Assembly: GCA_002327685.1 (NCBI GenBank)
Contig: DCXN01000003.1
Span: forward strand, 6,981-70,980
From: Patescibacteria group bacterium UBA2135
GTDB taxonomy: Bacteria > Patescibacteriota > Minisyncoccia > Phycocordibacterales > UBA2135
DNA length: 64,000 nucleotides
Reading direction: 5' to 3'
Made by a program: the position numbers and the translations under genes. Shown piece after piece: positions 1 to 14,883 of the stretch (positions are counted from its first letter, which is position 1; every line of letters begins with the position of its first letter). The notes under the pieces are model-generated. The model had not been told where the DNA came from. It did no database searches and worked only from the letters and a program-made list of their open reading frames with translations.

Positions 1-153
1 CGGAACTATCCCAAAACAATAGAGTTTGCACGAAAAATAATGCTCCTTTGTAGGCTGCCAGAAGAATCCGAAATCAAAGACGAGATATTCGGCAAGCTCT
101 CACAACCACTACAAGAGCTTCTTCAAGAAGTGATTGCCAAGTGGCGACCATAA
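1..153 (+). CDS. C-terminal fragment of an unknown protein, truncated by the window start
   Basis: Open frame 1 runs from the window start to a TAA at 151-153 (...QELLQEVIAKWRP*). An intrinsic terminator follows. Confidence 0.4.
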   Translation, partial: RNYPKTIEFARKIMLLCRLPEESEIKDEIFGKLSQPLQELLQEVIAKWRP

Positions 154-183
154 TCTACTCTTGCCAACAGTCCACAAAACAAA

Positions 184-216
184 GGCGTCCTCACAACCAC
201 GAGGACGTTTTTTTAC
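184..216 (+). terminator. Rho-independent terminator
   Basis: Hairpin CGTCCTC-N8-GAGGACG followed by TTTTTTT. Confidence 0.6.
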
Positions 217-235
217 ACCCCCCCCTTTTTTTTCT

Positions 236-301
236 CCGCAAGGCCCGGCCTTACATGGGGATAACCTGTTGATAAACTACCCCGCAAGGCCGGGCCTTGC
301 G
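236..301. repeat. REP-like element, family 1 (copy 1)
   Basis: CCGCAAGGCCCGGCCTTAC-ATGGGGATAACCTGTTGATAAACTACCCC-GCAAGGCCGGGCCTTGCG: two inverted arms around the palindromic core AAGGCCCGGCCTT. About 10 copies occur in the window. Confidence 0.8.
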
Positions 302-314
302 AATCAATAAACTT

Positions 315-360
315 TTACAAAAAAGGCTGCCACACAGACACCGTGTCTGTGTGGCAGCCA
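315..360 (-). terminator. Rho-independent terminator for the 392-991 gene
   Basis: Perfect 17-bp stem GGCTGCCACACAGACAC/GTGTCTGTGTGGCAGCC preceded by an A6 run (T-run on the minus strand). Confidence 0.7.
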
Positions 361-391
361 ATGAAACGCGTAGTCTTTAGCCCGTCGAAAC

Positions 392-991
392 CTAACCATT
401 AAGACAACGTTGCTCAAAATATTCCAGTCCAGCAGGCGCAAACTTTCCTTCGCGTGCATCAAATCTCATCATGGAAGAAAATGCGTTTTCGAAGAACCTT
501 GGATCGTGGTGTTTCTCAGCAATCTTACGTCGCCGATCTGAATCTGCAAAAATCGCAATCGGCAAAACATGAAGATCAACAAGTGGCATCTCGAGCAAAT
601 CTCGGATGTCAAGATCATTTCTCGAAAACCCAAACCATCCCTCAGAGAGCCGTGTAAGATTATCTCTAAGGAATGCGTTACTAGAATCTCCCGTCAGGCC
701 TTTAGTGAATTCAACCGATAGAACGTTCGAGTAGAATCCCCTATCAAAGACCATGAGATCAATGTCACCCACCTCGTCGGAATCGTTCGATTTGGCAGTA
801 GAGCCAAAAAGGATGATTTCCACAATACTCGGATCCAGTGCTTCGGTATCCTTATTTTTCATCGCCGACATTATGGAAAGAGTGCCCATAATGGTTTGAT
901 TTGTTGCGGAGGTTCTTTCGACTTGCCGTGAACCAGAGAGAATGAGCTGGGCAATTTTTTCTGCCCATTCAAGAGCTTCCGTACGTTTCAT
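392..991 (-). CDS. Minimal nucleotidyltransferase (Pol-beta superfamily)
   Basis: Motif ILFGSTAKSNDSDEVGDIDLMVF matches the G[GS]-x9-13-DxD signature of nucleotidyltransferases, and a third acidic cluster lies downstream. 199 aa. Confidence 0.6.
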   Translation of the reverse strand: MKRTEALEWAEKIAQLILSGSRQVERTSATNQTIMGTLSIMSAMKNKDTEALDPSIVEIILFGSTAKSNDSDEVGDIDLMVFDRGFYSNVLSVEFTKGLTGDSSNAFLRDNLTRLSEGWFGFSRNDLDIRDLLEMPLVDLHVLPIAIFADSDRRRKIAEKHHDPRFFENAFSSMMRFDAREGKFAPAGLEYFEQRCLNG

Positions 992-1117
992 GGTATTAAC
1001 CTCTCAGCTTTGTTCGTTTTCGGAAAATAAAGCTAACTCCAACTACATTATACACGATAATAAGTATTTGTCAAGAGGCGCCACAGCCTAGACATCAAAC
1101 CCCTATCTCCTACCACC

Positions 1118-1190
1118 CCTCCCTCCAAAACACACCAAATCACCACCAAACACCCTAAAGCCCCAAAATGCCCCGCATTTGGGGGTTTCA
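1118..1190. repeat. C/A-rich ~75-bp intergenic repeat (copy 1)
   Basis: Contains CAAAACACACCAAATCACC ... AAAATGCCCCGCATTTGGGGGTTTC. A near-identical copy is at 12038-12112. Confidence 0.6.
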
Positions 1191-1217
1191 TCTAAAAAAA
1201 CAACGAAAATCCTTAAC

Positions 1218-1853
1218 CTATATCACCCCCATCTTATCCACCAAAACCTCATGCGGATAGTCAAAAACGTCCCGAATAAATTTATCATATACACTTTTCC
1301 TATAGAGAAAATCATCTGTTTTAAGCACTGAATATTGCAATTCCCGCCCTATTTCAGACTCCAAATTCTTAAGAGATACCTTAATAATCCGATGTTTAAG
1401 ATGATCCCCCACCACAAGAACATCAATACGTCCGCGATTTTCAGTCCGCTCAAGCTCATCAACAAATATCCCAGATACCACAAGCAATTTCAATCTCCCA
1501 ACTTTTTTAAAACGATTAACAATATTTTCTTTCTGAAATGAATCACTATTCAAAAGAATATGCCGCAATGGCTCAATATATTGAAAATTCTCATCCAAAA
1601 CCCAGCCACGAACCTTTCGCTTCACAACCTTCTCCCCGCTTTTTGTTTTCTTTACCACTTCTTTAACAAAATTCTTTCGTTTTATGAGCCCAAGACTATG
1701 AATATATGCAAGTTCACGTCTCGTAGTATCAGCAAGTACTTGTGTGCGCATTCGCACATCTTTCGTCTCAAACGACACACCCGGATTAAACAAAAACAGC
1801 CGCATTATTTTCACATACGCAGTACTCCCAAATAATTTAGTAAGAATATCCAT
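1218..1853 (-). CDS. Winged-HTH domain protein, possible antitoxin or regulator partner of the downstream nucleotidyltransferase
   Basis: N-terminal LFGSTAYVKIMRLFLFNPG...RRELAYIHSLGLI resembles an ArsR/PadR-type wHTH. 211 aa. It sits directly upstream, on the same strand, of the nucleotidyltransferase gene. Confidence 0.5.
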   Translation of the reverse strand: MDILTKLFGSTAYVKIMRLFLFNPGVSFETKDVRMRTQVLADTTRRELAYIHSLGLIKRKNFVKEVVKKTKSGEKVVKRKVRGWVLDENFQYIEPLRHILLNSDSFQKENIVNRFKKVGRLKLLVVSGIFVDELERTENRGRIDVLVVGDHLKHRIIKVSLKNLESEIGRELQYSVLKTDDFLYRKSVYDKFIRDVFDYPHEVLVDKMGVI

Positions 1854-1893
1854 GATAGATTTTTAACGAGCGTAGCGAGTATAAAAATCATCA
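1854..1893. promoter_or_regulatory. Duplicated 5' leader/promoter-proximal sequence (copy 1 of 2)
   Basis: GATAGATTTTTAACGAGCGTAGCGAGTATAAAAATCATCA immediately upstream of the start codon. The identical sequence precedes the rplJ start at 4559-4590. Confidence 0.5.
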
Positions 1894-2000
1894 AAATATA
1901 ATCACTTCGCTCATTATTTTATCAATTGTACCACCATTAAAACACCTGCCAACTTGACAACCCACAAAGCTCTCCCTCCCAACACCGTCCCACCCCCCCC

Positions 2001-2063
2001 GCCGCAAGGCCCGGCCTTACATGGGGATAAGTTGTGGAAAACCTACCCCGCAAGGCCGGGCAT
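2001..2063. repeat. REP-like element, family 1 (copy 2)
   Basis: CCGCAAGGCCCGGCCTTACATGGGGATAAGTTGTGGAAAACCTACCCCGCAAGGCCGGGCATT. Confidence 0.75.
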
Positions 2064-2140
2064 TAAAGAGAAACTTACAGATTTTTCACCACCACGCAAA
2101 AGAGCCCCTCTTAACTAGAGGGGCCCTTCACACAGAACAG

Positions 2141-2569
2141 TTATACTCCATACTTCTGCACCAACGCTAAGAATTTTTTTAATTCTTGCAACAGTTCGTT
2201 AAGAGGAACTTCCTTAAAAAGCACGACACGGCTTGCTCCGTCAAAATCTCCTTCATATTCATACCCAAGACGCCTATTAAGACTTTTCTGAAATTCCACG
2301 GAATGCGTTAAGAACGCATCACGGCCATAATACGAGGCAAGCAAGCGAATCCAGATTTCAGCGACACCTTGTCTTATTTTCTCGCCATCATGCCTCACCT
2401 CAAAAGTATCCACAGGGAGAGTCCATTTCTTAGGGAAAGAAGAAGGAATAAGAAACGTTGCTTCTCCGTCACCTCCGTTACGTTCAACACATAAACCCAC
2501 GGACTGAACAATACCTTCAAATGTAGAAAAATATGACATCCTTTCCATCACACACCTCTTCCATGCCAA
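2141..2569 (-). CDS. Hypothetical protein
   Basis: 142-aa ORF with mixed composition and no recognisable motif. Flanked by REP copies. Confidence 0.4.
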   Translation of the reverse strand: MAWKRCVMERMSYFSTFEGIVQSVGLCVERNGGDGEATFLIPSSFPKKWTLPVDTFEVRHDGEKIRQGVAEIWIRLLASYYGRDAFLTHSVEFQKSLNRRLGYEYEGDFDGASRVVLFKEVPLNELLQELKKFLALVQKYGV

Positions 2570-2775
2570 TTATTAACTTTCTAAAATAACCATAACACCA
2601 TAACGCACTGAAAGAAAGGAAACAATAGCCCCACACCGCCGCCGCAGGGAAAAACGAGTTAAGCACAGAGAATTATATCTTGTATACCAACTTCACGAAC
2701 AGAGAAGTTAAAATTGAACAAGAAAAGAAAAGCCACTCAACCGAGAAGGTCAAGTGGCTACTAATCAAGAGTTGA

Positions 2776-3240
2776 TCAAGCAACGGAAGCGTCGTTTTCT
2801 TGTTGAATTTTTTCGGCCAAAATGGCGCGCACTCCTTCGGGCTCCTGCATAAATTGCTTGAAAAGCTCATCCGCCGCTTGTCTATGTTGATCTTCTTCCG
2901 ATAACTGCTGCATCCTGGTTCGCTTCAGAGAGTCGTCAATAGACTGCAGCACTTCAATCAACGGCGTTCTGAGCTTAGCTCTCGGAACATCTTTCGCGTC
3001 CACGCCAAGAGCTTTGAGCATCCAGCGCAAGTTGAGCTGATGTCCACGATAACGCATTTCAGAGATTGTCTGAGACACGAAAAACATTCCGCTGAATGGT
3101 CCATCTCCTCCAGTATCCTCAATAATCTTATTACACAAAGCAATGCATTCATCACAGATATGCACTGCCGGACCAGCAATGAGCTTATGGACTTCATGCT
3201 GACTTTTACCGCAGAATGAACAATCTAAGGCTTTAGGCAT
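2776..3240 (-). CDS. Standalone ClpX-type zinc-binding (ZB) domain protein
   Basis: N-terminus [40 protein letters not shown] closely matches the ClpX N-terminal C4 zinc-finger, but there is no AAA+ domain (155 aa). Start adjusted to ATG 3238-3240, which has an AGGGAG RBS 8 nt upstream. Confidence 0.6.
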
Positions 3241-3357
3241 ATCAAAACTCCCTTTGAACAACAAACGATAGAGTCCTAATCTATTGCTATTGTAACATAA
3301 ATAAAACTAATGTCAACAAGATATGTACACAAAATATTCCTAAAACACCCTAAACCG

Positions 3358-3426
3358 CCGCCGCAAGGCCCGGCCTTACATGGGGATAACCTGTGCATAA
3401 ACCACCCCGCAAGGCCGGGCCTTGCG
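3358..3426. repeat. REP-like element, family 1 (copy 3)
   Basis: CCGCCGCAAGGCCCGGCCTTACATGGGGATAACCTGTGCATAAACCACCCCGCAAGGCCGGGCCTTGCG. Confidence 0.8.
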
Positions 3427-3499
3427 TAAGCTCCTCGCATGCCACACACAAAAAGCCCCTACAAAAGGGACTTTCCGCTCAAACCACTCAAAAAAACAA

Positions 3500-3940
3500 T
3501 TACTTCAACTCAACCTTCCCCCCTGCCTCTTCAATCTTCTTTTTCATATCTTCCGCGTCTTCCTTCTTCACCCCTTCCTTAAGCATAGCCGGCACACCAT
3601 CAACAAGATCTTTCGCATCCTTAAGCCCAAGACCAAGTATCTCTTTTACAGCTTTGATAACCTGTATTTTTTGTTCTCCGCTAGAAGTAAGCTCAACATT
3701 AAATACAGATTTCTCCTCCGCCGCTCCACCAACATCTCCACCTGCAGGAGCAGCAGCAACAGCCGCAACAGCTTGCGCCGACACGCCAAATTTCTTTTCC
3801 AAAACCTTAACCAATTCAGAAAGATCAAGAACACTCATTTTCTCAATCTCCTCAACTAATTTCTTAAATTTTTCAGGAACCTCTACAACCTCGTCCTGCT
3901 GTGATTCCTCTTTAGATTCAGATTTCGTTTCTTCAACCAT
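3500..3940 (-). CDS. rplL: 50S ribosomal protein L7/L12
   Basis: Ala/Glu-rich hinge and the C-terminal domain [29 protein letters not shown]...GGKVELK. Confidence 0.9.
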
Positions 3941-3945
3941 GTTAC

Positions 3946-4027
3946 TAGGCTCTAGATTTTAGGCTCTAGGCTCTAGGAAAGAATCCGTGTTCCGTCCTAA
4001 AGCCTAATGCCTAATGCCTAATGCCTT
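3946..4027. repeat. Short tandem repeats in the rplJ-rplL spacer
   Basis: GGCTCTAG x3 followed by GCCTAATG x3. Confidence 0.5.
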
Positions 4028-4036
4028 TGTTAATTA

Positions 4037-4558
4037 TTAATTCTTCGCCTCCGCGACCTGGTGCAACACACTCACAAACGACTGCGTCATCCCATTTAAC
4101 ACCTGAACAGTCTGCTGAACAGGCGCGTTTATAACCATAACAAATTGCCCAAGAAGAACTTCTCGAGAAGGTATCTTCGCAAGAGCAACAACCTCTTCTT
4201 TCCTCAAATACCTTTTTTCAAGAATACCACCCACAGCCGATACCGCATTTTCAAATTTCTTCTGAAATTCCGCGATACCCTTTGCCGGCAAAACCATATC
4301 CTCACCATAAGCAAGCGCAATTTCTCCCTCAAGCTCCGGCAAATCCCCTTCCATCTCAGCATCTTGAAGTACTCGCTTAAGCAATGTTTTCTTCACTACA
4401 ACATACGAAACCCCCTCCTTACGAAGCGCGCTCCGCATTTCACTTGCGTCAGTTACAGACAACCCATGAAAATTAACAAACACAACAGAGTTCGCATTCT
4501 CCACTACATCAGCAGCCTGTTTGACGATTTCTTCTTTTTTCTGTTTTGTTAAAGCCAT
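4037..4558 (-). CDS. rplJ: 50S ribosomal protein L10
   Basis: MALTKQKKEEIVK...VVFVNFHGLSV...LKR signature of L10. Immediately upstream of rplL. Confidence 0.9.
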   Translation of the reverse strand: MALTKQKKEEIVKQAADVVENANSVVFVNFHGLSVTDASEMRSALRKEGVSYVVVKKTLLKRVLQDAEMEGDLPELEGEIALAYGEDMVLPAKGIAEFQKKFENAVSAVGGILEKRYLRKEEVVALAKIPSREVLLGQFVMVINAPVQQTVQVLNGMTQSFVSVLHQVAEAKN

Positions 4559-4586
4559 GATAGATTTTTAACGAGCGCAGCGAGTA

Positions 4587-4900
4587 TAAAAATCATCACC
4601 CCCTCACTCGAAAATTAATTGGAAATGCTTCTTTTTATTCTCCTCTTTAAACTAATAAGAGCCCCCGCTCTTCGCTTAATTTGCCGTTCTCTTTCACGAG
4701 CATCCTGTTCTGATTTATACGCTTCATAATACACAACATCAAATGGCTTTCTATTTTCTGTTGATGACACATTTCCATTATTATGTTCTTTCACTCTTTT
4801 CTGTAAATCACTGGTATATCCAAAATATAAATCTTTATCTTTCAATGATTGTAATGTGTAGAAAAAGAACATAATAATTAATTTTCGAGTGATGGGGGTT
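4587..4900. mobile_element. Small element bounded by 24-bp terminal inverted repeats and carrying a GIY-YIG nuclease gene
   Basis: Left end CACCCCCTCACTCGAAAATTAATT (4587-4610). Right end AATTAATTTTCGAGTGATGGGGGTT (4876-4900). The same inverted repeats bound the non-coding element at 26880-27034. Confidence 0.55.
4615..4872 (-). CDS. GIY-YIG nuclease superfamily protein
   Basis: FFFYTLQSLKDKDLYFGYTSDLQKRVKEHN matches the GIY-x10-YIG...R...E...N pattern. 85 aa. Confidence 0.7.
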   Translation of the reverse strand: MFFFYTLQSLKDKDLYFGYTSDLQKRVKEHNNGNVSSTENRKPFDVVYYEAYKSEQDARERERQIKRRAGALISLKRRIKRSISN

Positions 4901-5123
4901 AAGAATTAAAAAGAGTCCTTCAAACAAAGGACCGGAGAAACGCTAGCCAACAAAATGGCTAACGAACAATTTCGACCTCGGCAGGACTTCTCGCGAGCTA
5001 CGCTCACGCGCCTACTGTCTCCGATCTTAGATAAAGTAAGTATATTCAATTTAGCCCCCTTGTCAATGCTTCAAATACTTAAACTTTAAATATTTAAACT
5101 CTTCCGTCTTTAACAAGAAACCA

Positions 5124-5144
5124 GCCGCCAATAAATTGGCGGCC
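5124..5144 (-). terminator. Putative terminator hairpin
   Basis: GCCGCCAAT-AAA-TTGGCGGC, with a T-rich tract on the minus strand. Confidence 0.4.
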
Positions 5145-5197
5145 GATAAGCCCATATCCATTAACCCCACTTCTAGCCATCTTCTTAAAATGACCAA

Positions 5198-5413
5198 TTA
5201 AGCGCGGTGGCCATGAACCGGACATCCTGGCCAAAACCTGTGAACACTCGGACAAGTACATTTATACTTCTTCCCCATTCTCTTTGTTTCTTTCCTCATC
5301 CTTTTCTTCATTTTTTTTCTTAACTCTTTCTTCGCCTCCTTCAACTCTTCCCTCATCTTTTTCTTCGCTTCTTTATTCAACTTTTCACCTAGCGTTTGGA
5401 CACCCTTCGCCAT
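5198..5413 (-). CDS. Small Lys-rich protein with a C-terminal Cys/His cluster
   Basis: 71 aa. ...KYKCTCPSVHRFWPGCPVHGHRA. A duplicated 90-bp leader lies directly upstream. Confidence 0.4.
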   Translation of the reverse strand: MAKGVQTLGEKLNKEAKKKMREELKEAKKELRKKMKKRMRKETKRMGKKYKCTCPSVHRFWPGCPVHGHRA

Positions 5414-5503
5414 GATCTTACTCCTCTAGTCTTAGGTTTATGTGAACCAATCTGTCACCTATATAACACAACTTACAATTTAACACCAGCGTTGCAAGAA
5501 AAT
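5414..5503 (-). promoter_or_regulatory. Duplicated 90-bp 5' leader (copy 1)
   Basis: Identical to 5824-5913. Ends ...AGACTAGAGGAGTAAGAT(C/T)AT-ATG, with a GGAG RBS. Confidence 0.55.
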
Positions 5504-5625
5504 TACAAAAAAGCAGGCCGCCCGCTTCGCCACCACCCGCTCCGACGAGTCGGAGACGAGGCGAGAGGCAAGCAAACGACCCGTTACAAGACTTCTTCCC
5601 TATTCTCTTCATCTCTGTGTCTTTA

Positions 5626-5823
5626 TCAGATATCCATGTCATCAATCGACACCCTCATCCCCTCTGCCATTTTTTTATCCGCCTCTTCTTTCTCTTTTAC
5701 TTTAGCCAATTTACCACTATCCACCACCATGATCGAATTAATCCTATCAATCGTCTTCTCCATTTTCTCCATTTTTTTCTTTAATTCTGCCACTTGTACT
5801 TCAATCTCCTCCAAAGTCGACAT
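5626..5823 (-). CDS. Small coiled-coil protein
   Basis: 65 aa, charged heptad-like sequence. Preceded by the same 90-bp leader as the 5198-5413 gene. Confidence 0.4.
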   Translation of the reverse strand: MSTLEEIEVQVAELKKKMEKMEKTIDRINSIMVVDSGKLAKVKEKEEADKKMAEGMRVSIDDMDI

Positions 5824-5913
5824 AATCTTACTCCTCTAGTCTTAGGTTTATGTGAACCAATCTGTCACCTATATAACACAACTTACAATTTAACACCAGC
5901 GTTGCAAGAAAAA
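5824..5913 (-). promoter_or_regulatory. Duplicated 90-bp 5' leader (copy 2)
   Basis: Identical to 5414-5503. Confidence 0.55.
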
Positions 5914-5925
5914 AGGCAGACTACG

Positions 5926-5947
5926 AACAGTCTGCCCTCACATATCT
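5926..5947 (-). terminator. Rho-independent terminator
   Basis: GGCAGACT-ACGAAC-AGTCTGCC hairpin with a T6 run on the minus strand. Confidence 0.55.
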
Positions 5948-6285
5948 TTAGTCGAATGAATCTCAAATCCTTCATCCTGAACATCCTGAGCCCACCGCGT
6001 ATCTTTCCCAAGATACGGATTATGATCCTTACACACCCTATATTTCTCTAATTTTACACTTCCCTCACTTCCGCCACTTCGCAAATCACGTGATGCTGAC
6101 TTACCCGGCGGAATAAAAAAAACGGTAAATTGAGCTTTGTTTAAACATTTTTCTCCCGTATTCGTATGCGGACACTCGCAACAAATCTCCCGCAAAACCT
6201 TGCCCTTCCTAAATTTTCTAAACATCCTAAACTTTCTCAAAAAAGCAAACCAATTCCACAACATCAGCTTACCTCCTTTTTTCAA
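5938..6285 (-). CDS. Hypothetical protein (Cys-containing)
   Basis: 115-aa ORF containing CCECPH...C. Confidence 0.35.
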   Translation of the reverse strand: MKKGGKLMLWNWFAFLRKFRMFRKFRKGKVLREICCECPHTNTGEKCLNKAQFTVFFIPPGKSASRDLRSGGSEGSVKLEKYRVCKDHNPYLGKDTRWAQDVQDEGFEIHSTKDM

Positions 6286-6328
6286 ATCTCCAAACTAACC
6301 ACATCTTACCACCTTATCGCCGCGCTAT

Positions 6329-6397
6329 CGCCGCAAGGCCCGGCCTTACATGGGGATAAACTGTGGAAAACCTACCCCGCAAGGCCCGGCCTTGCGG
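6329..6397. repeat. REP-like element, family 1 (copy 4)
   Basis: CGCCGCAAGGCCCGGCCTTACATGGGGATAAACTGTGGAAAACCTACCCCGCAAGGCCCGGCCTTGCGG. Confidence 0.8.
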
Positions 6398-6720
6398 GTT
6401 TTTATATCCCACCCCTAAACACAAAATCACCTCATTTCCTAGAGCCTATTCACAATCTCGCCGCAAGTGAAAGAAATACTGCTCGCCGGCCAAAATCTCG
6501 AAATTCAGGCTGCAAATTATTCAAGACTCGTCGCCATATCTCGATATGCCTCCTCGTCTTTCATAATTTTCGCTCTGAATTTCGAAATTTATGGCTCGGC
6601 GCGAGATCGTAAACAGGCTCTAACGTCTCAAAATTAAAGCATCATTTTTTAAAAAACAATCCCGAAAATACATTATAAATTAAGGGTATTTTAGGAGCAT
6701 AAACAATCACCAAAAAACAC

Positions 6721-6749
6721 TTGACAAACAGATTTAACCATGATACACT
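6721..6749 (+). promoter_or_regulatory. Sigma70-like promoter (TTGACA-17-TACACT)
   Basis: TTGACAAACAGATTTAACCATGATACACT followed by RBS AGGAGG and ATG at 6794. A near-identical motif is at 14810-14838. Confidence 0.55.
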
Positions 6750-6793
6750 CTACATGGAGACTAGAACTTCACACTTGACTAGGAGGACATCAA

Positions 6794-7210
6794 ATGTCCA
6801 AAAAGGATGCGACGAAAGAAAGACAGCCCAGCGGTCCTTTCAGCGGACTCAGGTCTTGGCTACGTAAAGCCAAAACACCGGAGACCAGCCTAACAGCTAG
6901 CTCCCCAGAGAACCAGCCTGAAAAGCAACCGCCAGAGCTAGTCTTGACGCATCAAACCCATAAGCACAAACGGATCGGCTCGATCAGTGTATCGGTGCCA
7001 GTGCTCGCCAAAGGGAAAATTCTCACCCTTAACTCCCGCCAAGACAAGGGTCAGACACCATTGACTCGTGTCTTATTCAACGAGGTAGCAGGGATCGAGG
7101 GTATGATACTTCGACAGCACAGGGTTCAGATCAGAAGAGTCAAGGGTTCTCACTGGAACCAAATCTTTCCCGATGCAGAAAAAGTTATCCGTCAACATCT
7201 GACGGGCTAA
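6794..7210 (+). CDS. Hypothetical protein
   Basis: 138-aa ORF with a consensus RBS and promoter. Confidence 0.55.
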   Translation: MSKKDATKERQPSGPFSGLRSWLRKAKTPETSLTASSPENQPEKQPPELVLTHQTHKHKRIGSISVSVPVLAKGKILTLNSRQDKGQTPLTRVLFNEVAGIEGMILRQHRVQIRRVKGSHWNQIFPDAEKVIRQHLTG

Positions 7211-7272
7211 TACGCCCGTCACAAAACCAGCCGGCCCACACAGGGTCGGCTTTGTTTTTCACCCCCTCCCTC

Positions 7273-7341
7273 CGCCGCAAGGCCCGGCCTTACATGGGGA
7301 TAACTTGTTGATAAACTGCCCCGTAAGGCCGGGCCTTGCGG
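7273..7341. repeat. REP-like element, family 1 (copy 5)
   Basis: CCGCCGCAAGGCCCGGCCTTACATGGGGATAACTTGTTGATAAACTGCCCCGTAAGGCCGGGCCTTGCGG. Confidence 0.8.
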
Positions 7342-7378
7342 AAACAAAAACACGACCGAACCTTTTGGGTTCGATCGT
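7342..7378 (-). terminator. Rho-independent terminator for the 7401-7823 gene
   Basis: ACGACCGAACC-TTTT-GGGTTCGATCGT hairpin with a T-run on the minus strand. Confidence 0.55.
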
Positions 7379-7400
7379 ATAAAAATTGACACATATCTAT

Positions 7401-7823
7401 TCAGCCACCTGTATTCTCATCACCGTCACCTTGCGCCACAAAATGTTTCTCCGCACCACGACGTGTTACAAAAGCAAACATAAACGCGCCAACATAAAAA
7501 GAAAGAAGAAAGCCAATAATAAGCCAAAGTGGTGTTAAAGACCAAAACGAGATTTCAAAAAGGACTATCGCAAAAAGCATAAGAATGAAAATTTTGACGT
7601 GTGTATAAATCCAAGATTTTTTATGGCGAACTTGCGCCAATAGACCAAAAGCAAACGGGGTAATCAATATACCGATTACTCCAAGAGGTTCTATCGCAAA
7701 ATACATTCCGGTCATTCCGGAAGATTCTATACTTGTTACCGCCACAAAATACATTCTAGCTATCAAACCAAGACCCAAACTGCCCAACAATACCGGAAGT
7801 GTAGACCAGTTAATAATGCGCAT
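7401..7823 (-). CDS. Integral membrane protein
   Basis: 140 aa with four predicted transmembrane segments. Confidence 0.55.
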   Translation of the reverse strand: MRIINWSTLPVLLGSLGLGLIARMYFVAVTSIESSGMTGMYFAIEPLGVIGILITPFAFGLLAQVRHKKSWIYTHVKIFILMLFAIVLFEISFWSLTPLWLIIGFLLSFYVGAFMFAFVTRRGAEKHFVAQGDGDENTGG

Positions 7824-7955
7824 GATAATTTCCTTTCATATCTATTCGCATTTATTCACATTTCTGCGATAAACTCATGAGACTTATGTAACTTCTAAAA
7901 CTAAGTATCCCCAAAAACATTTTTTTGTCAACAGTCAACACACCACCCCACACCC

Positions 7956-8024
7956 CGCCGCAAGGCCCGGCCTTACATGGGGATAAGTTGTTGATAACCC
8001 ACCCCGCAAGGCCGGGCCTTGCGG
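7956..8024. repeat. REP-like element, family 1 (copy 6)
   Basis: CGCCGCAAGGCCCGGCCTTACATGGGGATAAGTTGTTGATAACCCACCCCGCAAGGCCGGGCCTTGCGG. Confidence 0.8.
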
Positions 8025-8079
8025 CATACCCAACCTTTCCCCCCCCACACAACACTGCTCTTACCTAACCACAGCCCAC

Positions 8080-10323
8080 CTACGGCCCCACCCCATACCT
8101 CCAATTCAAAACACCATAATCAAGATGCGGTGGAGCCCCCGCGCCAGTTTTAAAAAACGCCCTAAAATCAGCGACGTCATTATAAGAGAAACTATTACGC
8201 ACCTTATAAATCGCAGCAAACAATCGCTCCCCCTGAATAGGATTCAAAATGTCATCATTTTGCTGAGAACTAGGGCTCGTACCCAAAGAATGCCCATTAA
8301 CAATCGTTGAACTCGCCACAACCCCCCGATATAAATCACCATACACCGTCCCAGATATACCAGAATAAACATACTTGCAAGAGCCACTCTCTGGAATATA
8401 ATATCCCCCTTCAGAAAAACTTGAAGTCTCCGACGGGCAAAAATAACCAATCGCGAGAAGCGAAACACTGTTCTGCGCGCGCGGAGTACCATTAAGCGCG
8501 CCGCCATCCGCATCCGTGCCATTCACGGTAAAAGTATTATTTGATTTCCAATTCGTAGCAAGCGCGCCGTCTACCCCAAAGCTCACCCGCTCCATAGAAA
8601 GATAGTCAGAACCAGCGCTCCCGCCACACCATCCGCCGCCACAATCAGAAAGCGCCGGCGTCTCATCAAGCGTCGTAGTAGCAAAACCACCAAGATACTG
8701 AACAAGACTCAACACCTCGCCGCCATTCCCCAGATCAGAACTGCCGCCCGATCCGCTAAACGCTACTACTAAATCTTCAACAACACTCGTAGTATTACCG
8801 TCAGTCCGCTCTATAAGATAAAATCCGCTTGACGTCGCAGTCGCAGCCCCATCCCCTAACGAAATATCAGGCGCGCCATCTTCAGCGACAAGCGAAACAT
8901 TCGCAAGGGTAATGTCATGATTTGAAGGACTAAACAACTCCACCCACTCATCCGCACTTGACGCGTCCGTTCCTCCCCAGGCAATTTCATTAATAACAAG
9001 CGGGCGCGTAACCACCTCAACAGATTGCGCAGTCGTAGTAGCGCCATTTCCAACGGCATCATAAACAGCAGCTTGTAGATTATACGAGCCATCAGCTGAA
9101 ACCGTTATCGTCCCCGACGCGTCTGTCGTCGTAGCGGTCAACACACCGTCCCGGACGAGCGCGTAATACGCTATGTCAGTTGAAGAAGAACTCCACGAAA
9201 GGTTAAGCGTCATTCCGCCTGACAAACATGTCTCTGACGAAAGAGAATATTCACATTGAAGAACCGAGAACGAGCCAAACACAGGCGCGATGGTGTCTAC
9301 CGAAATAGTTTTCGCCGACGATGTCGCCGTCATCCCCTCACTGTTGGCGGCAATAATTTGAATAGCCGTTTCCCCTTCTGGAAAATTACTCAGCACAAGC
9401 GTCCAACTTTCGTTTTCATCCGCTGTCGTAGTCGCATTATTAAAATTGTTTGAGATGACAAGCGTTGACGAAGCAGTGCCGGAAAACGTGAGCGACGTCG
9501 TCGCGGTGTCAAAAACATCATCCGCGGGAGAAATAATAATCGGCGCGGAAATGACAACAGCCGCTGACTCCTCTTCTTCTTCAGCCTCTTCCTCTTCTTC
9601 TTCCTCCGCAGACTCACTCTCTTCAGCGTCATCCTGCGGCGCCTCCGGCGCCGTACCACCACCCCCACTCCCACCACCAAACCCCGGCTGATACGGTTGC
9701 GGCTGATATGGCTCCGACTCCAACAGGTCATCACCATCAATATCCGTCAATAAATCATCAACATCCGTCGCCACCTCCTCAGACTCAACCGGAATCTCCG
9801 CAAGCGGAGATTCCCCCACAGGCACAACCACAACTTCCGGCGCAACCACATCCACATCCCCCCCAAAAACCTCCCCCACCGACGGCTCCGCAAGCGGAGC
9901 CGTCACACTCACAAGCGGCGCCTCCGGCGCCGCCACAATTGAGAAAAAGGCTTCTTTGTCAGTTTTTTTATCAAGCTCAAAATTTTTTATTCTTTCTATA
10001 ACTTGAGATAGTTGCTGTTCTTGTTTTGCTTTTTCTAAATCACTTTTCATCTCCTCCCTATCATCCGGCAAAAAATACTTACTCGCCAACTCCACATCCT
10101 CCGCCTCAAGCGCTTCAATAAAAAGCGCGAGTGTTTCTTCCGGTGTTGCGCCGCCGAAGGTGTCATTTTCATATTCCTTCTCCAAATTTTCAAAATATTC
10201 AATCGCCGCGCGCTCCTGCCGCCCCTCGGGATTCAAATACGCCACCCCAACCCAAACAAGCAAGCCAACGACAATAATCCCCAAAAACCCTAATAAAAAC
10301 CTTTTACTTGTACCATTTAACAT
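8080..10323 (-). CDS. Large membrane-anchored surface protein with a lamin-tail domain, Ig-like repeats and an acidic/Pro-rich linker
   Basis: N-terminal transmembrane segment. Glu-rich and PQPYQP repeat tract. VINEIAWGGTDASSADEWVELFSP matches a lamin-tail domain. 747 aa. Confidence 0.7.
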   Translation of the reverse strand: MLNGTSKRFLLGFLGIIVVGLLVWVGVAYLNPEGRQERAAIEYFENLEKEYENDTFGGATPEETLALFIEALEAEDVELASKYFLPDDREEMKSDLEKAKQEQQLSQVIERIKNFELDKKTDKEAFFSIVAAPEAPLVSVTAPLAEPSVGEVFGGDVDVVAPEVVVVPVGESPLAEIPVESEEVATDVDDLLTDIDGDDLLESEPYQPQPYQPGFGGGSGGGGTAPEAPQDDAEESESAEEEEEEEAEEEEESAAVVISAPIIISPADDVFDTATTSLTFSGTASSTLVISNNFNNATTTADENESWTLVLSNFPEGETAIQIIAANSEGMTATSSAKTISVDTIAPVFGSFSVLQCEYSLSSETCLSGGMTLNLSWSSSSTDIAYYALVRDGVLTATTTDASGTITVSADGSYNLQAAVYDAVGNGATTTAQSVEVVTRPLVINEIAWGGTDASSADEWVELFSPSNHDITLANVSLVAEDGAPDISLGDGAATATSSGFYLIERTDGNTTSVVEDLVVAFSGSGGSSDLGNGGEVLSLVQYLGGFATTTLDETPALSDCGGGWCGGSAGSDYLSMERVSFGVDGALATNWKSNNTFTVNGTDADGGALNGTPRAQNSVSLLAIGYFCPSETSSFSEGGYYIPESGSCKYVYSGISGTVYGDLYRGVVASSTIVNGHSLGTSPSSQQNDDILNPIQGERLFAAIYKVRNSFSYNDVADFRAFFKTGAGAPPHLDYGVLNWRYGVGP

Positions 10324-10395
10324 AAGTCCTCATATTATATAAAGCTAATAAAAAATAAACTTGACTGACAAAAAATATATACTCTAACAAGCAAA

Positions 10396-10575
10396 CGAAC
10401 GGGAAAGGTCTGACCTTGAGGAAAAAACTGTGTCGCCAGGTCTGGCCTTGAGGAGGAGCGGAGCGACGGGAGAAGACCAGACCTTGCGGTACAGTTTTTG
10501 GGAAAAGGTCGGACCTCGCGGAGTCCATTTGCCGAACTGAGGAGTTTCAGCCCGAGACTGATCCGCCTCAGGCGG
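10396..10575. repeat. Family-2 GC-rich repeat array
   Basis: Units such as GGTCTGACCTTGAGG / CCAGGTCTGGCCTTGAGGAGGAGCGGAGCGACGGGAGAAG / ACCAGACCTTGCGG / GGTCGGACCTCGCGG. The core resembles the family-1 arm (CCGCAAGGYCCGGCCTT). Confidence 0.75.
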
Positions 10576-10595
10576 AAACACAAAACAAAATGCTT

Positions 10596-10835
10596 TTATT
10601 TGAATAGCCTTAATATATCCTCCTTGGTTATAGAAGAATCGCACTTCAAAACAAATTTAGCAATATTATTCACAACCTCACTTTTTATTTTTTTATGTCG
10701 CGGTAATGGACATTTAGTACCAGTATTCTCACAAGGAATTTGATCATGTTTTTTCCCGTTTATAATTGAAAACCCCAGTGTCTCTAGGGCTTTAGTAATT
10801 TTCCTATGGGTACTTTCAAAGAAGTAGTCACTCAT
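10596..10835 (-). CDS. hicA: HicA-family toxin (YcfA-like mRNA interferase)
   Basis: KITKALETLGFSIINGKKHDQ...PLPRHKKIKSEVVNNIAK follows the HicA pattern (LeklGF...kGSHh...vPvH.k.ik.g.lk.Ilk). 79 aa. Confidence 0.5.
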   Translation of the reverse strand: MSDYFFESTHRKITKALETLGFSIINGKKHDQIPCENTGTKCPLPRHKKIKSEVVNNIAKFVLKCDSSITKEDILRLFK

Positions 10836-10838
10836 TTT

Positions 10839-11222
10839 TTAGGCAACAATTTTTTCCATAACAAAATTTCTATCCAAATATTCATTTGGTATTGTCATGC
10901 CAAATTTTTCAACAAGTTCTTGTGACGGCTGATAATGTGTTACAAATTTTCTGTAATCCTCAGGAATTCCCAAGGAAGTATGCATGGCATCGTTCACCAT
11001 TTCAATTATTTCTTTTCCAGAATTTGCTTGTGTTATACAGTTATCAATATTTCCTATTTCAGCAACATAGCCGCCATCTTTAGATGATTGTATTCTGACG
11101 TCTATGGAGTCCGGAATTTTGGAGTTAAAAGCGACGATTAACTCCGGACGAATTGGTTCTTTGGTCCTAAAAAGAAAGTCTGTAAAAGACATATTTATAT
11201 TTATACTACATAAGCAAGACAT
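10839..11222 (-). CDS. hicB: HicB-family antitoxin (UPF0150-like)
   Basis: ...SSKDGGYVAEIGNIDNCITQANSGKEIIEMVNDAMHTSL matches the HicB N-terminal fold pattern. A 4-nt gap separates it from hicA. The true start may be the internal Met at 11192. Confidence 0.5.
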   Translation of the reverse strand: MSCLCSININMSFTDFLFRTKEPIRPELIVAFNSKIPDSIDVRIQSSKDGGYVAEIGNIDNCITQANSGKEIIEMVNDAMHTSLGIPEDYRKFVTHYQPSQELVEKFGMTIPNEYLDRNFVMEKIVA

Positions 11223-11529
11223 TGCAAGAAGCCCATCTCACAAACTTTTCAGCGCACTAACTAAAAGAACACTCTCACACCAAACACAAGAAGCCCGATA
11301 ATGACAACAGCGATAAAAATAAAAACGAGATACAAGAAAACTTCTTTCACAAACGAACGCCCTTTTTTAGACTCCTTTCCTGTTAATTCTTTATCCATAT
11401 TTTTATTTTACCAAAACGATACTCCTCTTCCTACAAACTGCACTCAATTCTGAAAGCAATAAAACGTCTTGCTCTAGAGCAAATTCAGGAGTTTGCTATG
11501 AAGCTCTTTTAAAAAATTTACACTGCCCG

Positions 11530-11817
11530 TCATTCGAAAAATTCAACTTCAATATCAATAGAATTATTTTGTTCGTTAAGAGTCCCTACCATCGCTATAA
11601 TGTGACGTCCTCCAGTTACTTCATTGGCTTGATACATGACAAGCGGACCCTCAAAGCTGCGCCCCTTAGGTAACGCATCTTTAATTCTCTGCACAGCATC
11701 ATCTTTTGAAGTAGCTTGTGCCATCGCTTCCTCCATAGCTTTTTTTGTCGGTACGACAACCTCACGCTTGAATTTTTCTCGTGATGTTTCAACACCAGGT
11801 GCATCTTCTTGTGACAT
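11530..11817 (-). CDS. Hypothetical protein
   Basis: 95-aa ORF with protein-like composition. Confidence 0.4.
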   Translation of the reverse strand: MSQEDAPGVETSREKFKREVVVPTKKAMEEAMAQATSKDDAVQRIKDALPKGRSFEGPLVMYQANEVTGGRHIIAMVGTLNEQNNSIDIEVEFFE

Positions 11818-11929
11818 AAATTTATGTTTAATTATAAATATAAAGTTATATTAACACGATAAGCAAAATTTAATAAATGATAAATGATAGCCCAAAATAA
11901 GGCCAGTCACTTTTTTGCAATTATTAATC

Positions 11930-12033
11930 ACTCGTCTGCCAAATATTATTACACGCCGCGCTTTTCTGCCATCCAGCCGCCATAGCCTCCTCTTCGGCAC
12001 AAAACCACTGCTCCCCTTTCCGCGGGTCAATCC
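11930..12033 (-). pseudogene. Duplicated 3'-terminal fragment of the thermonuclease gene
   Basis: About 105 bp at ~90% identity to 12690-12795, which is the last ~35 codons plus stop of the 12684-13475 gene. Confidence 0.6.
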
Positions 12034-12037
12034 TCAC

Positions 12038-12112
12038 CCCCCCCACTTCAAAACACACCAAATCACCTCCTCCCCAAAAAAACACTATAAAATACCCCGC
12101 ATTGGGGGGTTT
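12038..12112. repeat. C/A-rich ~75-bp intergenic repeat (copy 2)
   Basis: CAAAACACACCAAATCACC...AAAATACCCCGCATTGGGGGGTTTG. Hairpin plus T-rich tail. Confidence 0.6.
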
Positions 12113-12239
12113 GTTTATTCTTTCAAATCATATCCTTGACATATAGCATGTATCGTGCTAGGATTACCGTAGAAAGCCTACATCATGGTAGTTCAAACGA
12201 CAAATATATTGTCCTAATCTGAAACGAAAGGAGTCCATA

Positions 12240-12485
12240 GTGTTGAAAGAGAGAGACGACGAAATCATTAGCAAACACGTTCGCGTTAAGGCATGTGAAG
12301 CACTCGAGCACGGCGATAACGTTGGATGTGTTTGTCATCTTATCGGCAAGGTGGTTAAGATCAAAAAGCGCTACAACGCACCACTCGCTGGCACACCCTC
12401 ATATCACATCAAGGGTATGAATCAGCGCGTCCGGCGTAGTGAAGTCACGCTGCTGAGAGACCAGTCAACACCCTTGAGTAAGTAG
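12240..12485 (+). CDS. Hypothetical small protein (GTG start)
   Basis: 81 aa. AAAGGAG RBS upstream. A hairpin GAGAATCC-GTC-GGATTCTC follows the stop. Confidence 0.4.
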   Translation: MLKERDDEIISKHVRVKACEALEHGDNVGCVCHLIGKVVKIKKRYNAPLAGTPSYHIKGMNQRVRRSEVTLLRDQSTPLSK

Positions 12486-12683
12486 CCCTCGAGAATCCGT
12501 CGGATTCTCAATCGAACTCTCAAGAAGTAACCAGGCGCACGACCTTCGGGTACGGCGTCTTTTATTTTGGAAAATAGGGACAGTTTAGAAAATAAGGTCA
12601 CCCACTTCCCCAACAAACCCCAAAATCACCCCTCCGCGTTACTTAACAAAAAATCAAATCCAAAATCATAAATCATAAATCCC

Positions 12684-13475: not shown

Positions 13476-13535
13476 AAAAAAATATCATAAAAAAGCCAGC
13501 TGTTTGGGGCAGAACAACTGGCAAACCATTTTTGA

Positions 13536-13736
13536 TTAAAAAAACAGGTAGAACACTAGGCCGGCAAAGACCATGCCCTCCAATATATAGGTGAATTCGT
13601 GTAATGCCCTCTGAGCCCACCCGTGCGTCTCGTAGTAACTCCGCTTATAGTCAGTCAGGTGGTCAGAAACCATTATAACCCCCATGCTGACCACAGTAAA
13701 AAAGGTAAATATTACGACAATCTTGACGTCTACCAT
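13536..13736 (-). CDS. Small membrane protein
   Basis: 66 aa, two hydrophobic segments. Confidence 0.3.
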   Translation of the reverse strand: MVDVKIVVIFTFFTVVSMGVIMVSDHLTDYKRSYYETHGWAQRALHEFTYILEGMVFAGLVFYLFF

Positions 13737-13875
13737 AACGCCCTCCTTTTCTCGGTTGAACTTTAGGATTACTGGAAAACGAGTCTAAATACATTATACA
13801 CAACGATAAGTATCTGTCAAGTAAAAGCCGCACTTGCATTGCAAAAGTGCGGCTTCATAATTACATGACCCTCGT

Positions 13876-14061: not shown

Positions 14062-14129
14062 TGATTGTACTCCTCATAGCTATCAAATAACCTCAATCAT
14101 ATTATCATACTTAAAAGATTACGTCAACC

Positions 14130-14838: not shown

Positions 14839-14883
14839 TTAGATAGACAAAATCGACAAACCCACCTTTTCGGGAGAATCATA

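What the first reader, a model, noticed from the sequence alone, without database searches (positions are those of the whole stretch)
2776..3240. Standalone ClpX zinc-binding-domain protein without an AAA+ module
The first ~45 residues ([40 protein letters not shown]) are a near-textbook ClpX N-terminal C4 zinc finger. The remaining ~110 residues have no ATPase motifs. A free ZB domain could act as an adaptor mimic or regulator of ClpXP, or bind another partner. No clpX or clpP is in this window.
Basis: partly seen in the sequence, partly recalled or inferred. Interest (0 to 1): 0.5.

Follow-up and report, generated by a model that had tools for sequence, protein, structure and literature searches.

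The report
Orphan ClpX zinc-finger protein, accessory cassette
A marine ultra-small (Patescibacteria) bacterium carries a self-contained, dispensable gene for a protein that joins a near-perfect copy of the ClpX protease's zinc-binding docking domain to a very rare helical tail with no motor, so it probably mimics ClpX's docking site, but this is untested.

Summary
Window 2776-3240 (minus strand) encodes an intact 154-aa protein. Residues 3-42 are a ClpX C4 zinc-binding domain (ZBD): Pfam 69 bits, 75-78% identical to E. coli ClpX ZBD, with all four Cys and the F16/I46 docking patch kept. The remaining ~110 residues have no AAA+ signal, and no clpX remnant lies downstream.

The gene has its own near-consensus promoter, Shine-Dalgarno site and terminator. 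An ortholog with the same architecture (P0036) exists in another genome, so this is not a broken clpX.

The tail domain is extremely rare: two protein clusters among 5.8 billion proteins (1.84 billion representatives). AlphaFold predicts a small alpha/beta unit plus a long helical hairpin, with no known fold.

A syntenic sister genome lacks exactly this ~710-nt cassette. The cassette is bracketed by a duplicated edge of a REP-like hairpin repeat, so the gene is accessory.

Standalone ZBD proteins with other partners are common in bacteria and phages and are uncharacterised. The best mechanistic guess is a dimeric ZBD mimic that competes for or tethers ClpX N-domain ligands. I could not test whether this genome has ClpXP. 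Moderate interest.

The parts
3289..3316 (-). Sigma-70-type promoter: TTGACA, 16-nt spacer, TG-extended TACAAT (11 of 12 consensus positions)
   Evidence: It lies 49 nt upstream of the ATG and downstream of the rplL terminator-like site (3469-3456) and the hairpin repeat.
3248..3254 (-). Shine-Dalgarno sequence AAGGGAG, 7 nt before the ATG
   Evidence: read directly from the sequence
2776..3240 (-). CDS of the 154-aa standalone ZBD protein (stop codon 2776-2778)
   Evidence: The identical protein and DNA occur on 14 contigs from Tara/ENA, JGI and Logan. It is in NCBI as part of a MAG labelled '[bacterium]'.
3115..3234 (-). ClpX-type C4 zinc-binding domain, residues 3-42. Zn ligands are C7, C10, C29 and C32 (E. 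coli C14, C17, C36, C39). F9 and I39 correspond to E. coli F16 and I46.
   Evidence: residue mapping taken from the 2DS5 alignment; the role of F16/I46 is from PMC7804408
3085..3114 (-). Gly-rich linker, residues 43-52 ([10 protein letters not shown]); low confidence in the structure models
   Evidence: alignment with P0036
2779..3084 (-). Lineage-specific C-terminal domain, residues 53-154. Predicted as a short helix, beta-hairpin and two short helices, then a long helical hairpin (full-protein residues ~94-132 and ~134-153). Motifs conserved with P0036: LxLRWxL, TPL(I/V)(E/D)VL..IDD, PEGVR.aL..K.Q.
   Evidence: only P0036 shares it; pLDDT 72.5; 75-87 over the core; no known fold or sequence relative
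2731..2759 (-). Intrinsic terminator: 12-bp stem, 5-nt loop and T-run, starting 17 nt after the stop codon
2644..3357 (.). Extent of the cassette (terminator, CDS and promoter) that is absent from the syntenic sister genome L179, which has about 9 nt at this position
   Evidence: Flanks align as window 2507-2643 = L179 4360-4499 and window 3358-3429 = L179 4516-4587.
2636..2649 (+). Left bracket CCGCCGCCGCAGGG: a duplicated copy of the C-rich 5' edge of the hairpin repeat
   Evidence: sequence; compared with L179
3355..3368 (+). Right bracket CCGCCGCCGCAAGG: the start of the complete hairpin repeat
   Evidence: sequence
3339..3423 (+). REP-like hairpin repeat copy (about 22-bp stem) between the rplL terminator and the ZBD promoter. 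It is context for the cassette, not part of the protein.
   Evidence: family D1; 8 identical 29-nt cores; fold -57.4 kcal/mol, z = -4.9

Best explanation
This is an intact, independently transcribed accessory gene of a marine Patescibacteria (Paceibacteria/Minisyncoccia-like) bacterium. It encodes a two-module cytoplasmic protein. The N-terminal module is a bona fide ClpX-type zinc-binding domain. In ClpX this domain is a constitutive dimer and the docking platform for adaptor tails (SspB, RssB, trigger factor) and for N-domain-dependent substrates. The C-terminal module is a near-orphan ~100-aa domain (small alpha/beta unit plus long helical hairpin) that is not an ATPase. The most likely mechanism (inferred, not shown) is as follows. 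The protein dimerises through the ZBD, and probably also through the helical hairpin. It presents the same hydrophobic peptide-docking patch as ClpX's N-domain. It therefore acts as a ZBD mimic: it competes with ClpX for adaptors or degrons (decoy/anti-adaptor, stabilising certain proteins), or it tethers whatever its tail binds to the same ligands. Shown here: the domain identity, the intact functional residues, the absence of an AAA+ module, the autonomous transcription unit, conservation of the architecture in a second genome, and dispensability (absence in a sister genome). Inferred: dimerisation, ligand competition and any link to ClpXP in this organism.
For: All four Cys are present, as are F9 (=F16) and I39 (=I46). 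PMC7804408 states that lambda-O, SspB, RssB and TF use this same hydrophobic region. The ZBD is ~79% identical between P0001 and P0036 by my residue count, and 75-78% identical to E. coli ClpX. The tail is only 32-36% identical. This pattern indicates stronger constraint on the ZBD surface. Free ZBD dimerises and inhibits adaptor-mediated ClpXP degradation in vitro (PMC7226468), so a decoy mechanism is physically established for the isolated domain. The unit is autonomous, with promoter, SD and terminator. P0036 and P0066 are likewise solo genes flanked by opposite-strand genes, with no shared neighbour. This argues that the protein does not need a co-encoded partner. There is no AAA+ relation. 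Many phage and bacterial ZBD-only proteins with varied partner domains exist, which shows the ZBD is a reusable interaction module.
Against: I could not determine whether this genome encodes ClpX or ClpP. None was seen in about 84 kb of its contig or on L178. Some CPR bacteria have Clp protease, but this lineage is unknown. There is no conserved gene neighbourhood to tie the protein to proteolysis. Two ZBD positions that are Tyr in E. coli (Y13, Y34) are D6 and H27 here; P0036 has Y and F at these positions. Ligand specificity may therefore differ. The gene is absent from a sister genome, so it is not a core regulator. The tail has no recognisable function, and there are no expression data.
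Confidence: 0.4

Rival explanations
1. ClpX-independent regulator. The ZBD serves only as a zinc-stabilised dimerisation and peptide-binding module, as in ZBD-HTH proteins and ZBD-sigma-factor fusions. The helical tail carries the real activity, for example binding a nucleic acid or another protein.
For: ZBD is fused to HTH domains, Glyoxalase_8 domains and sigma factors in other proteins (PMC11119718). There is a weak pairwise resemblance between the tail and the ZBD-HTH family tail: 37% over 59 aa, E=0.084. Weak MarR-type hits recur. No Clp genes are seen nearby.
Against: The profile comparison of the tail with the ZBD-HTH tail is negative (hhalign probability 0.08%). No HTH or other nucleic-acid-binding family is detected. 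The MarR hits are non-significant (E of at least 0.12; Foldseek probability at most 0.05). The near-identity of the ZBD surface to that of ClpX suggests the same ligands.
Confidence: 0.28
2. Mobile-element or phage-derived cassette. The gene is a moron-like accessory gene of the kind phages carry, perhaps to shield their own proteins from host ClpXP, or it is a component of a defence or variable island acquired horizontally.
For: The cassette is absent from a syntenic sister genome and is bracketed by a short duplicated sequence at a REP-like element. It sits in a hypervariable, ORFan-rich region with 8 REP-like repeats and a RAYT-like gene. Neighbouring ORFs hit PADLOC candidate families. 43 of 72 ZBD ORFs on IMG/VR viral contigs are short standalone proteins. 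PHROGs 6797, 12435 and 5259 match the ZBD. Isolate phages D6, P88 and others encode such ORFs.
Against: No viral or phage sequence shares the tail domain. There are no phage structural or integrase genes nearby. The cassette GC (0.42) equals that of the genome. The target itself has no PADLOC hit. The indel could equally be a deletion in the sister lineage. This rival concerns origin and is compatible with the decoy mechanism.
Confidence: 0.15
3. Trans-acting N-domain of a split ClpX. The lineage's ClpX lacks its own ZBD, and this protein supplies it in trans, with the tail docking onto the AAA+ ring.
For: Only the architecture (ZBD plus an unknown docking-type helical domain) and the very high ZBD conservation.
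Against: The gene is dispensable in a sister genome. It is extremely rare, with two clusters in 5.8 billion proteins, whereas a split ClpX would be expected throughout a clade. It is not linked to any AAA+ gene.
Confidence: 0.07
4. Decaying or truncated clpX (pseudogene fragment). The tail is frame-shifted or degenerated AAA+ sequence.
For: BLAST extensions from the ZBD into ClpX fragments give colinear-looking but weak alignments. Examples are GPFSG against GPTGSGKT, and EGVRAIL against EGVQQALL.
Against: These alignments are not significant: E of 1.6 or more, and no better than shuffles. hhalign of the tail profile against the ClpX AAA+ profile gives probability 0.15%. P0001 and P0036 place the 'Walker A' in different alignment columns. 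No AAA+ remnant exists downstream in any frame. The gene has its own promoter, SD and terminator. The same 154-162-aa architecture is conserved at 43% identity in another genome.
Confidence: 0.03

Closest known systems
N-terminal zinc-binding domain of ClpX (E. coli; PDB 1OVX, 2DS5-2DS8; Pfam PF06689)
   Same: The same domain: 75-78% identity over 40 residues, the CxxC...CxxC zinc ligands, the KLIAGP hairpin, the helix LCNxII, and the F16/I46 docking patch.
   Different: It is not attached to an AAA+ unfoldase. It has no Walker A/B motifs, pore loops or IGF loop. E. coli Y13 and Y34 are D6 and H27 here. It is followed by an unrelated helical domain.
Standalone 'ClpX C4-type zinc finger protein' class (NCBI name), including the ZBD-HTH family (P0002, P0003, P0020 and others), Glyoxalase_8-ZBD (P0009) and tandem-ZBD proteins (P0039, P0047)
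   Same: A short protein built around one ClpX-type ZBD without an ATPase, and with no characterised function found in the literature searches. The ZBD of P0001 shares the 'ALCNKII' helix variant with P0002.
   Different: The partner domain differs. The tail here shows no profile similarity to the HTH tail (hhalign probability 0.08%) and has no Pfam family. The tail family has only two clusters.
Phage-encoded short ZBD proteins (PHROG 6797, 12435, 5259; ORFs of Escherichia phages D6, P88 and PhiR41_1; IMG/VR contigs)
   Same: Standalone ZBD ORFs of 55-217 aa carried on mobile DNA. Like the target, they are accessory genes.
   Different: They have different extensions, often N-terminal to the ZBD. 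None shares this C-terminal domain. The target lies in a bacterial chromosome with no phage genes around it.
ClpXP adaptors and anti-adaptors that act at the ZBD (SspB, RssB, IraD/IraM/IraP, trigger factor)
   Same: This is a functional analogy only: small proteins that control which substrates reach ClpX by acting at the ZBD docking site (PMC7226468, PMC7804408).
   Different: Those proteins bind the ZBD. This protein is itself a ZBD, so it would act as a mimic of the receptor rather than as a ligand. There is no sequence relationship.
Sigma-70 factors with an accessory zf-C4_ClpX domain in cyanobacteria (PMC11119718)
   Same: They show that the ClpX-type ZBD is reused outside ClpX as an accessory module.
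   Different: Those proteins are sigma factors. The target has no sigma or HTH domain.

Membership tests
ClpX (TIGR00382 / NF003745 equivalogs) | N-terminal C4 zinc-binding domain | tested here: met
   Pfam PF06689 at 69 bits against a cutoff of 27; PDB ClpX ZBD at E=6e-16
ClpX (TIGR00382 / NF003745 equivalogs) | AAA+ module (Walker A/B, pore loops, IGF loop) and a full-length score above the curated cutoff | tested here: not met
   46 bits against cutoffs of 359 and 371, matching only residues 4-45. No AAA Pfam hit. hhalign of the tail against ClpX AAA+ gives probability 0.15%.
zf-C4_ClpX domain family (PF06689) | Four zinc-ligand cysteines in CxxC...(18)...CxxC spacing, and a score above the gathering threshold | tested here: met
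   C7, C10, C29 and C32 align to E. coli C14, C17, C36 and C39; 69 bits
zf-C4_ClpX domain family (PF06689) | Zinc binding and homodimerisation of the domain | not testable with these tools
   Inferred from sequence conservation. Dimerisation is shown only for the E. coli ZBD (PMC7226468).
Disrupted or pseudogenised clpX | AAA+ coding remnant downstream or in another frame, with loss of expression signals | tested here: not met
   tblastn with 9 ClpX fragments finds only the ZBD. Promoter, SD and terminator are intact. An ortholog with the same architecture exists.
ZBD-HTH standalone family (P0002/P0003/P0020 type) | C-terminal helix-turn-helix ending ...VSRQAAWERF | tested here: not met
   No HTH Pfam hit for the target, whereas P0002, P0003 and P0020 have HTH hits. 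hhalign A4 against A6 gives probability 0.08%. The pairwise BLAST E-value is only 0.084.
ClpXP decoy / anti-adaptor (functional class) | Co-occurrence with ClpX and ClpP in the same genome | not testable with these tools
   Only about 84 kb of the contig and a few related contigs were accessible, and none has clpX or clpP. The genome is not in the species-representative collection.
ClpXP decoy / anti-adaptor (functional class) | Conserved adaptor/substrate docking patch on the ZBD (E. coli F16, I46) | tested here: met
   F9 and I39 align to F16 and I46; their role is described in PMC7804408
Phage ZBD proteins (PHROG 6797 / 12435 / 5259) | Full-length similarity to the phage family and a phage genomic context | tested here: not met
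   The PHROG matches cover only the ZBD. Viral and phage tblastn matches cover only residues ~3-45. There are no phage genes in the neighbourhood.

The most novel reading that the evidence does not exclude
This would be a natural receptor mimic of ClpX: a paralogous free N-domain that a host-dependent ultra-small bacterium uses to re-route or block ZBD-dependent proteolysis. It would act either in its own cell or, more speculatively, in the partner cell it lives on, given that its ZBD is about as similar to proteobacterial ClpX ZBDs as to its own ortholog. It would be the first described anti-adaptor that is itself a copy of the protease's docking domain, carried on a REP-associated accessory cassette.
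Probability: 0.2. Interest if true: 0.6.

Novelty: new variant of a known kind. Interest (0 to 1): 0.35.

Why it matters
ZBD-only proteins are numerous in bacteria and phages and already carry a database name, but my literature searches found no functional study of them. If this one (or the class) acts as a free copy of ClpX's docking domain, it would be a new and simple way to tune regulated proteolysis. Because the ZBD is about 78% identical to the E. coli domain, the idea can be tested directly in the well-established E. coli ClpXP assays. For this particular gene the significance is limited. It is a rare, dispensable, lineage-specific accessory gene with an orphan tail and no informative context. 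Its main value is as an example of domain reuse and of cassette-like gene turnover next to REP-like repeats in a Patescibacteria genome.

Tried and rejected
1. AAA+ relic hypothesis. tblastn and BLASTP extensions suggested a colinear match of the tail to the ClpX Walker A to pore-2 region. I rejected this for four reasons. The E-values are 1.6 or more. 56-378 of 500 shuffles score as well. hhalign probability is 0.15%. P0001 and P0036 give mutually inconsistent 'Walker A' placements.

2. Homology of the tail to the ZBD-HTH family tail. The pairwise E-value is 0.084, but the profile-profile comparison is negative, so it is not established.

3. P0066 as a third family member. It has the same architecture and size. 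However, tail similarity is only E=0.012 pairwise and E=0.025 with 1.9% probability by hhalign, so it is left as 'possible'.

5. Finding the genome in the species-representative collection failed, so clpX/clpP presence could not be checked. RecA was used instead to place the organism.

6. Population variation. All seven retrieved copies of the gene are identical at the DNA level, so no dN/dS test was possible. The only variant is P0034 (A142S).

7. Conserved neighbourhood: none among the three loci.

8. Rfam: no family anywhere in the window.

9. Literature. There were no papers on standalone ClpX-type ZBD proteins in the searchable library, and no statement on ClpX in Paceibacteria.

Full report
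**1. Observation**

The finding's coordinates hold. On the minus strand an ORF runs from ATG 3240 to the stop at 2776-2778 and encodes 154 aa identical to the quoted sequence.
- Pfam assigns residues 7-41 to zf-C4_ClpX (E=3.2e-19, 69 bits against a 27-bit cutoff).
- The solved E. coli ClpX zinc-binding domains (2DS5, 1OVX) match residues 3-42 at E~6e-16, with 75-78% identity.
- NCBIfam's ClpX equivalogs match only residues 4-45, at 46 bits against cutoffs of 359 and 371.
- From the 2DS5 alignment, C7, C10, C29 and C32 correspond to the E. coli zinc ligands C14, C17, C36 and C39. F9 and I39 correspond to F16 and I46. That hydrophobic region is used by lambda-O, SspB, RssB and trigger factor (PMC7804408).
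- The E. coli Y13 and Y34 positions are D6 and H27 here.

**2. Not a clpX fragment**

Residues 43-154 hit nothing in Pfam, NCBIfam or PDB sequences.
- tblastn of nine ClpX fragments against the window finds only the ZBD. The only other AAA-type signal is an unrelated P-loop ORF at 48.2-48.8 kb.
- BLAST extensions from the ZBD produced colinear-looking alignments to the Walker A to pore-2 region. These are no better than shuffles.
- A tail profile against a ClpX AAA+ profile gives hhalign probability 0.15%.
- The two family members place the supposed Walker A in different columns.
- The gene has a near-consensus promoter (TTGACA-16-TGnTACAAT, 3316-3289), an AAGGGAG Shine-Dalgarno site 7 nt from the ATG, and a 12-bp-stem terminator 17 nt after the stop (sequence). 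It is a monocistronic unit lying between the rplL terminator and the next ORF.

**3. Family size**

An exhaustive phmmer search of the tail against 1.84 billion representatives returned one true relative. P0036 is 162 aa, has the same ZBD-linker-tail architecture, and is 36% identical in the tail and 43% overall.
- A two-sequence tail profile against 5.8 billion proteins again returned only P0001 and P0036.
- P0066 (161 aa) has the same layout and size, but its tail similarity is marginal (E=0.012 pairwise; E=0.025 and 1.9% probability by hhalign).
- In all three genomes the gene is a solo unit. P0036 and P0066 are flanked by opposite-strand genes, and P0036 has a strong bidirectional terminator. 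No neighbour is shared among the three loci.
- The ZBD is ~79% identical between P0001 and P0036 by my residue count, while the tail has drifted to about one third identity. The ZBD surface is therefore the most constrained part.

**4. Structure of the tail**

**5. Organism and context**

The window is chromosomal DNA. It carries rplJ-rplL, recA, ftsK, metG, proS-like, ssb, rpsF, htrA, recJ, comEC and other housekeeping genes.
- RecA is 73-77% identical to Minisyncoccia, Nomurabacteria and Paceibacterota MAGs, so the host is a Patescibacteria (CPR) bacterium.
- NCBI labels the MAG simply '[bacterium]'. It comes from Tara Oceans station 039, mesopelagic.
- Seven retrieved copies of the gene from ENA, JGI and Logan assemblies are identical at the DNA level.
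- No clpX or clpP occurs in the window, in the extra ~20 kb of the same contig seen through L001 and L094, or on the related contig L178, which carries ftsH, rpoD and dnaG.
- The genome is not in the species-representative collection. Whether it has ClpXP could therefore not be tested. Some CPR bacteria do have Clp protease.

**6. The gene is an accessory cassette**

The first 21 kb of the window holds eight same-orientation copies of a REP-like element with an invariant 29-nt core and a ~22-bp hairpin. One copy lies directly upstream of the ZBD promoter.

Scanning metagenome contigs for the repeat core recovered L179. This is a syntenic stretch of a sister genome with 78-92% nucleotide identity over ORF211, ORF142, the repeat, rplL, rplJ and beyond.
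- In L179, the ORF142 homolog abuts the repeat.
- The window segment ~2644-3357 is exactly terminator plus CDS plus promoter. In L179 it is replaced by about 9 nt.
- In the window the segment is bracketed by CCGCCGCCGCA(A)GG at 2636-2649 and 3355-3368. This is a duplication of the C-rich edge of the repeat.
- No ZBD is encoded anywhere on the repeat-bearing contigs.
- Cassette GC (0.42) matches the genome.

The gene is therefore dispensable and indel-polymorphic. Insertion cannot be distinguished from deletion by recombination between the short repeats.

**7. Comparison with what is known**

ZBD-only proteins are common.
- The first protein search returned many 113-139-aa ZBD proteins with a C-terminal HTH (…VSRQAAWERF), 214-aa Glyoxalase_8-ZBD proteins, and tandem-ZBD proteins. 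NCBI already names some of these 'ClpX C4-type zinc finger protein'.
- Cyanobacterial sigma factors can carry the domain (PMC11119718).
- On IMG/VR viral contigs, 43 of 72 ZBD-motif ORFs are short standalone proteins.
- PHROGs 6797, 12435 and 5259 match the ZBD.
- Isolate phages such as D6, P88 and PhiR41_1 encode such ORFs, annotated as hypothetical or mis-annotated.
- None of these shares the tail found here. The ZBD-HTH tail is unrelated by profile comparison, despite a weak pairwise resemblance.
- My literature searches found no functional study of any standalone ClpX-type ZBD protein.

**8. Mechanism**

Established knowledge: the ClpX ZBD is a stable dimer and the docking site for adaptors and some substrates. 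Isolated ZBD dimerises and, added in trans, inhibits RssB-mediated sigma-S degradation by ClpXP (PMC7226468). SspB, RssB, trigger factor and lambda-O share the F16/I46 patch (PMC7804408).

The target keeps this patch and all zinc ligands, and it carries no ATPase. The most economical model is therefore a dimeric receptor mimic. It would sequester ZBD ligands (decoy or anti-adaptor), or it would link them to whatever the helical tail binds. I put this at about 0.4.

The rivals are:
- a ClpX-independent regulator that uses the ZBD merely as a dimerisation or peptide-binding module (~0.28);
- a phage or mobile-element-derived accessory cassette (~0.15; this concerns origin and is compatible with the decoy mechanism);
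- a trans-acting N-domain for a ZBD-less ClpX (~0.07);
- a decaying clpX (~0.03, effectively refuted).

**9. Verdict**

The architectural interpretation is supported, and the functional interpretation is plausible but untested. It is a new variant (orphan tail, CPR host, REP-adjacent cassette) of a known but uncharacterised kind (standalone ClpX-type ZBD proteins). Interest is moderate (0.35). The class deserves an experiment, and this protein's E. coli-like ZBD makes one easy. However, this particular gene is rare, dispensable and without informative context.

Noticed in passing
window 214-298, 1980-2064, 3339-3423, 6309-6393, 7253-7337, 7936-8020, ~14133-14197, ~20912-20940; related motifs at 15866-15882, 16963-17030, 47923-48036: This is a REP/REPIN-like intergenic element. 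It has an invariant 29-nt core (CCGCAAGGCCCGGCCTTACATGGGGATAA), and all 8 full copies lie in the same orientation. It folds into a ~22-bp hairpin (-57 kcal/mol, z = -4.9). It has no Rfam family. The exact core occurs in only 5 metagenome contigs.
   Followed up: partly
window 16055-16891 (-), flanked by the palindromic motif at 15866-15882 and 16963-17030: This ORF encodes a Y1/IS200-like transposase. It hits Pfam Y1_Tnp (E=6.6e-8) and NCBIfam REP-associated tyrosine transposase (E=3.8e-10, below cutoff). The REP-like motif flanks it on both sides, which is the classical RAYT-REP arrangement, here in a Patescibacteria genome. It is conserved in the sister genome (L179 10412-11549).
   Followed up: partly
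window 1-17000 compared with L179 (MPMB02186772.1): The region around rplJ-rplL is hypervariable between sister genomes. Besides the ZBD cassette, window ~9273-15898 (6.6 kb) corresponds to only ~1 kb in L179, and several ORFan genes differ. Gene turnover appears to occur between the REP-like elements.
   Followed up: partly
window 1218-1853 (-) and 392-991 (-): The two ORFs downstream of the target hit PADLOC candidate-defence families (PDC-M05A at E=1e-14; PDC-S09 at E=4e-5). The second also hits nucleotidyltransferase domains weakly (NTP_transf_2). They may be an MNT-type nucleotidyltransferase pair or a candidate defence module.
   Followed up: no
window 1850-1893 and 4555-4598: A 44-nt sequence, 98% identical between its two copies, overlaps the start codon and 5' leader of both ORF211 and rplJ (CCATGATAGATTTTTAACGAGCG(T/C)AGCGAGTATAAAAATCATCA). 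It may be a shared promoter, operator or leader element.
   Followed up: no
window 5407-5502 and 5817-5912: A 96-nt direct repeat at 98% identity, spaced 410 nt apart, brackets small ORFs in the region between the GIY-YIG gene and the next REP-like copy.
   Followed up: no
window 3500-4558 (-): rplJ-rplL is not followed by rpoB-rpoC as in most bacteria; the ZBD cassette and ORFans follow instead. The 64-kb window contains no tRNA gene and no Rfam family, not even an L10 leader. Several large ORFs (1207 aa at 21199-24822; 642 aa at 45880-47808; 615 aa at 31231-33078) have no Pfam hit.
   Followed up: no
proteins P0039, P0041, P0043, P0047, P0048, P0049, P0052 (metagenomic, not in the window): Some proteins consist of two to four tandem ClpX-type ZBDs with no ATPase. 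P0039 has four ZBDs in 221 aa. This is another uncharacterised architecture of the domain. Some high-scoring hits (P0040, P0042, P0046) look like assembly chimeras of clpX.
   Followed up: no
L135-L149 and similar IMG/VR loci; Escherichia phages D6, P88, PhiR41_1 (H1-H8): A conserved 107-121-aa enterobacterial phage or prophage protein has an N-terminal helical domain and a C-terminal ZBD (PHROG 6797). GenBank records annotate it as hypothetical or mis-annotate it as 'carboxylate-amine ligase'.
   Followed up: partly
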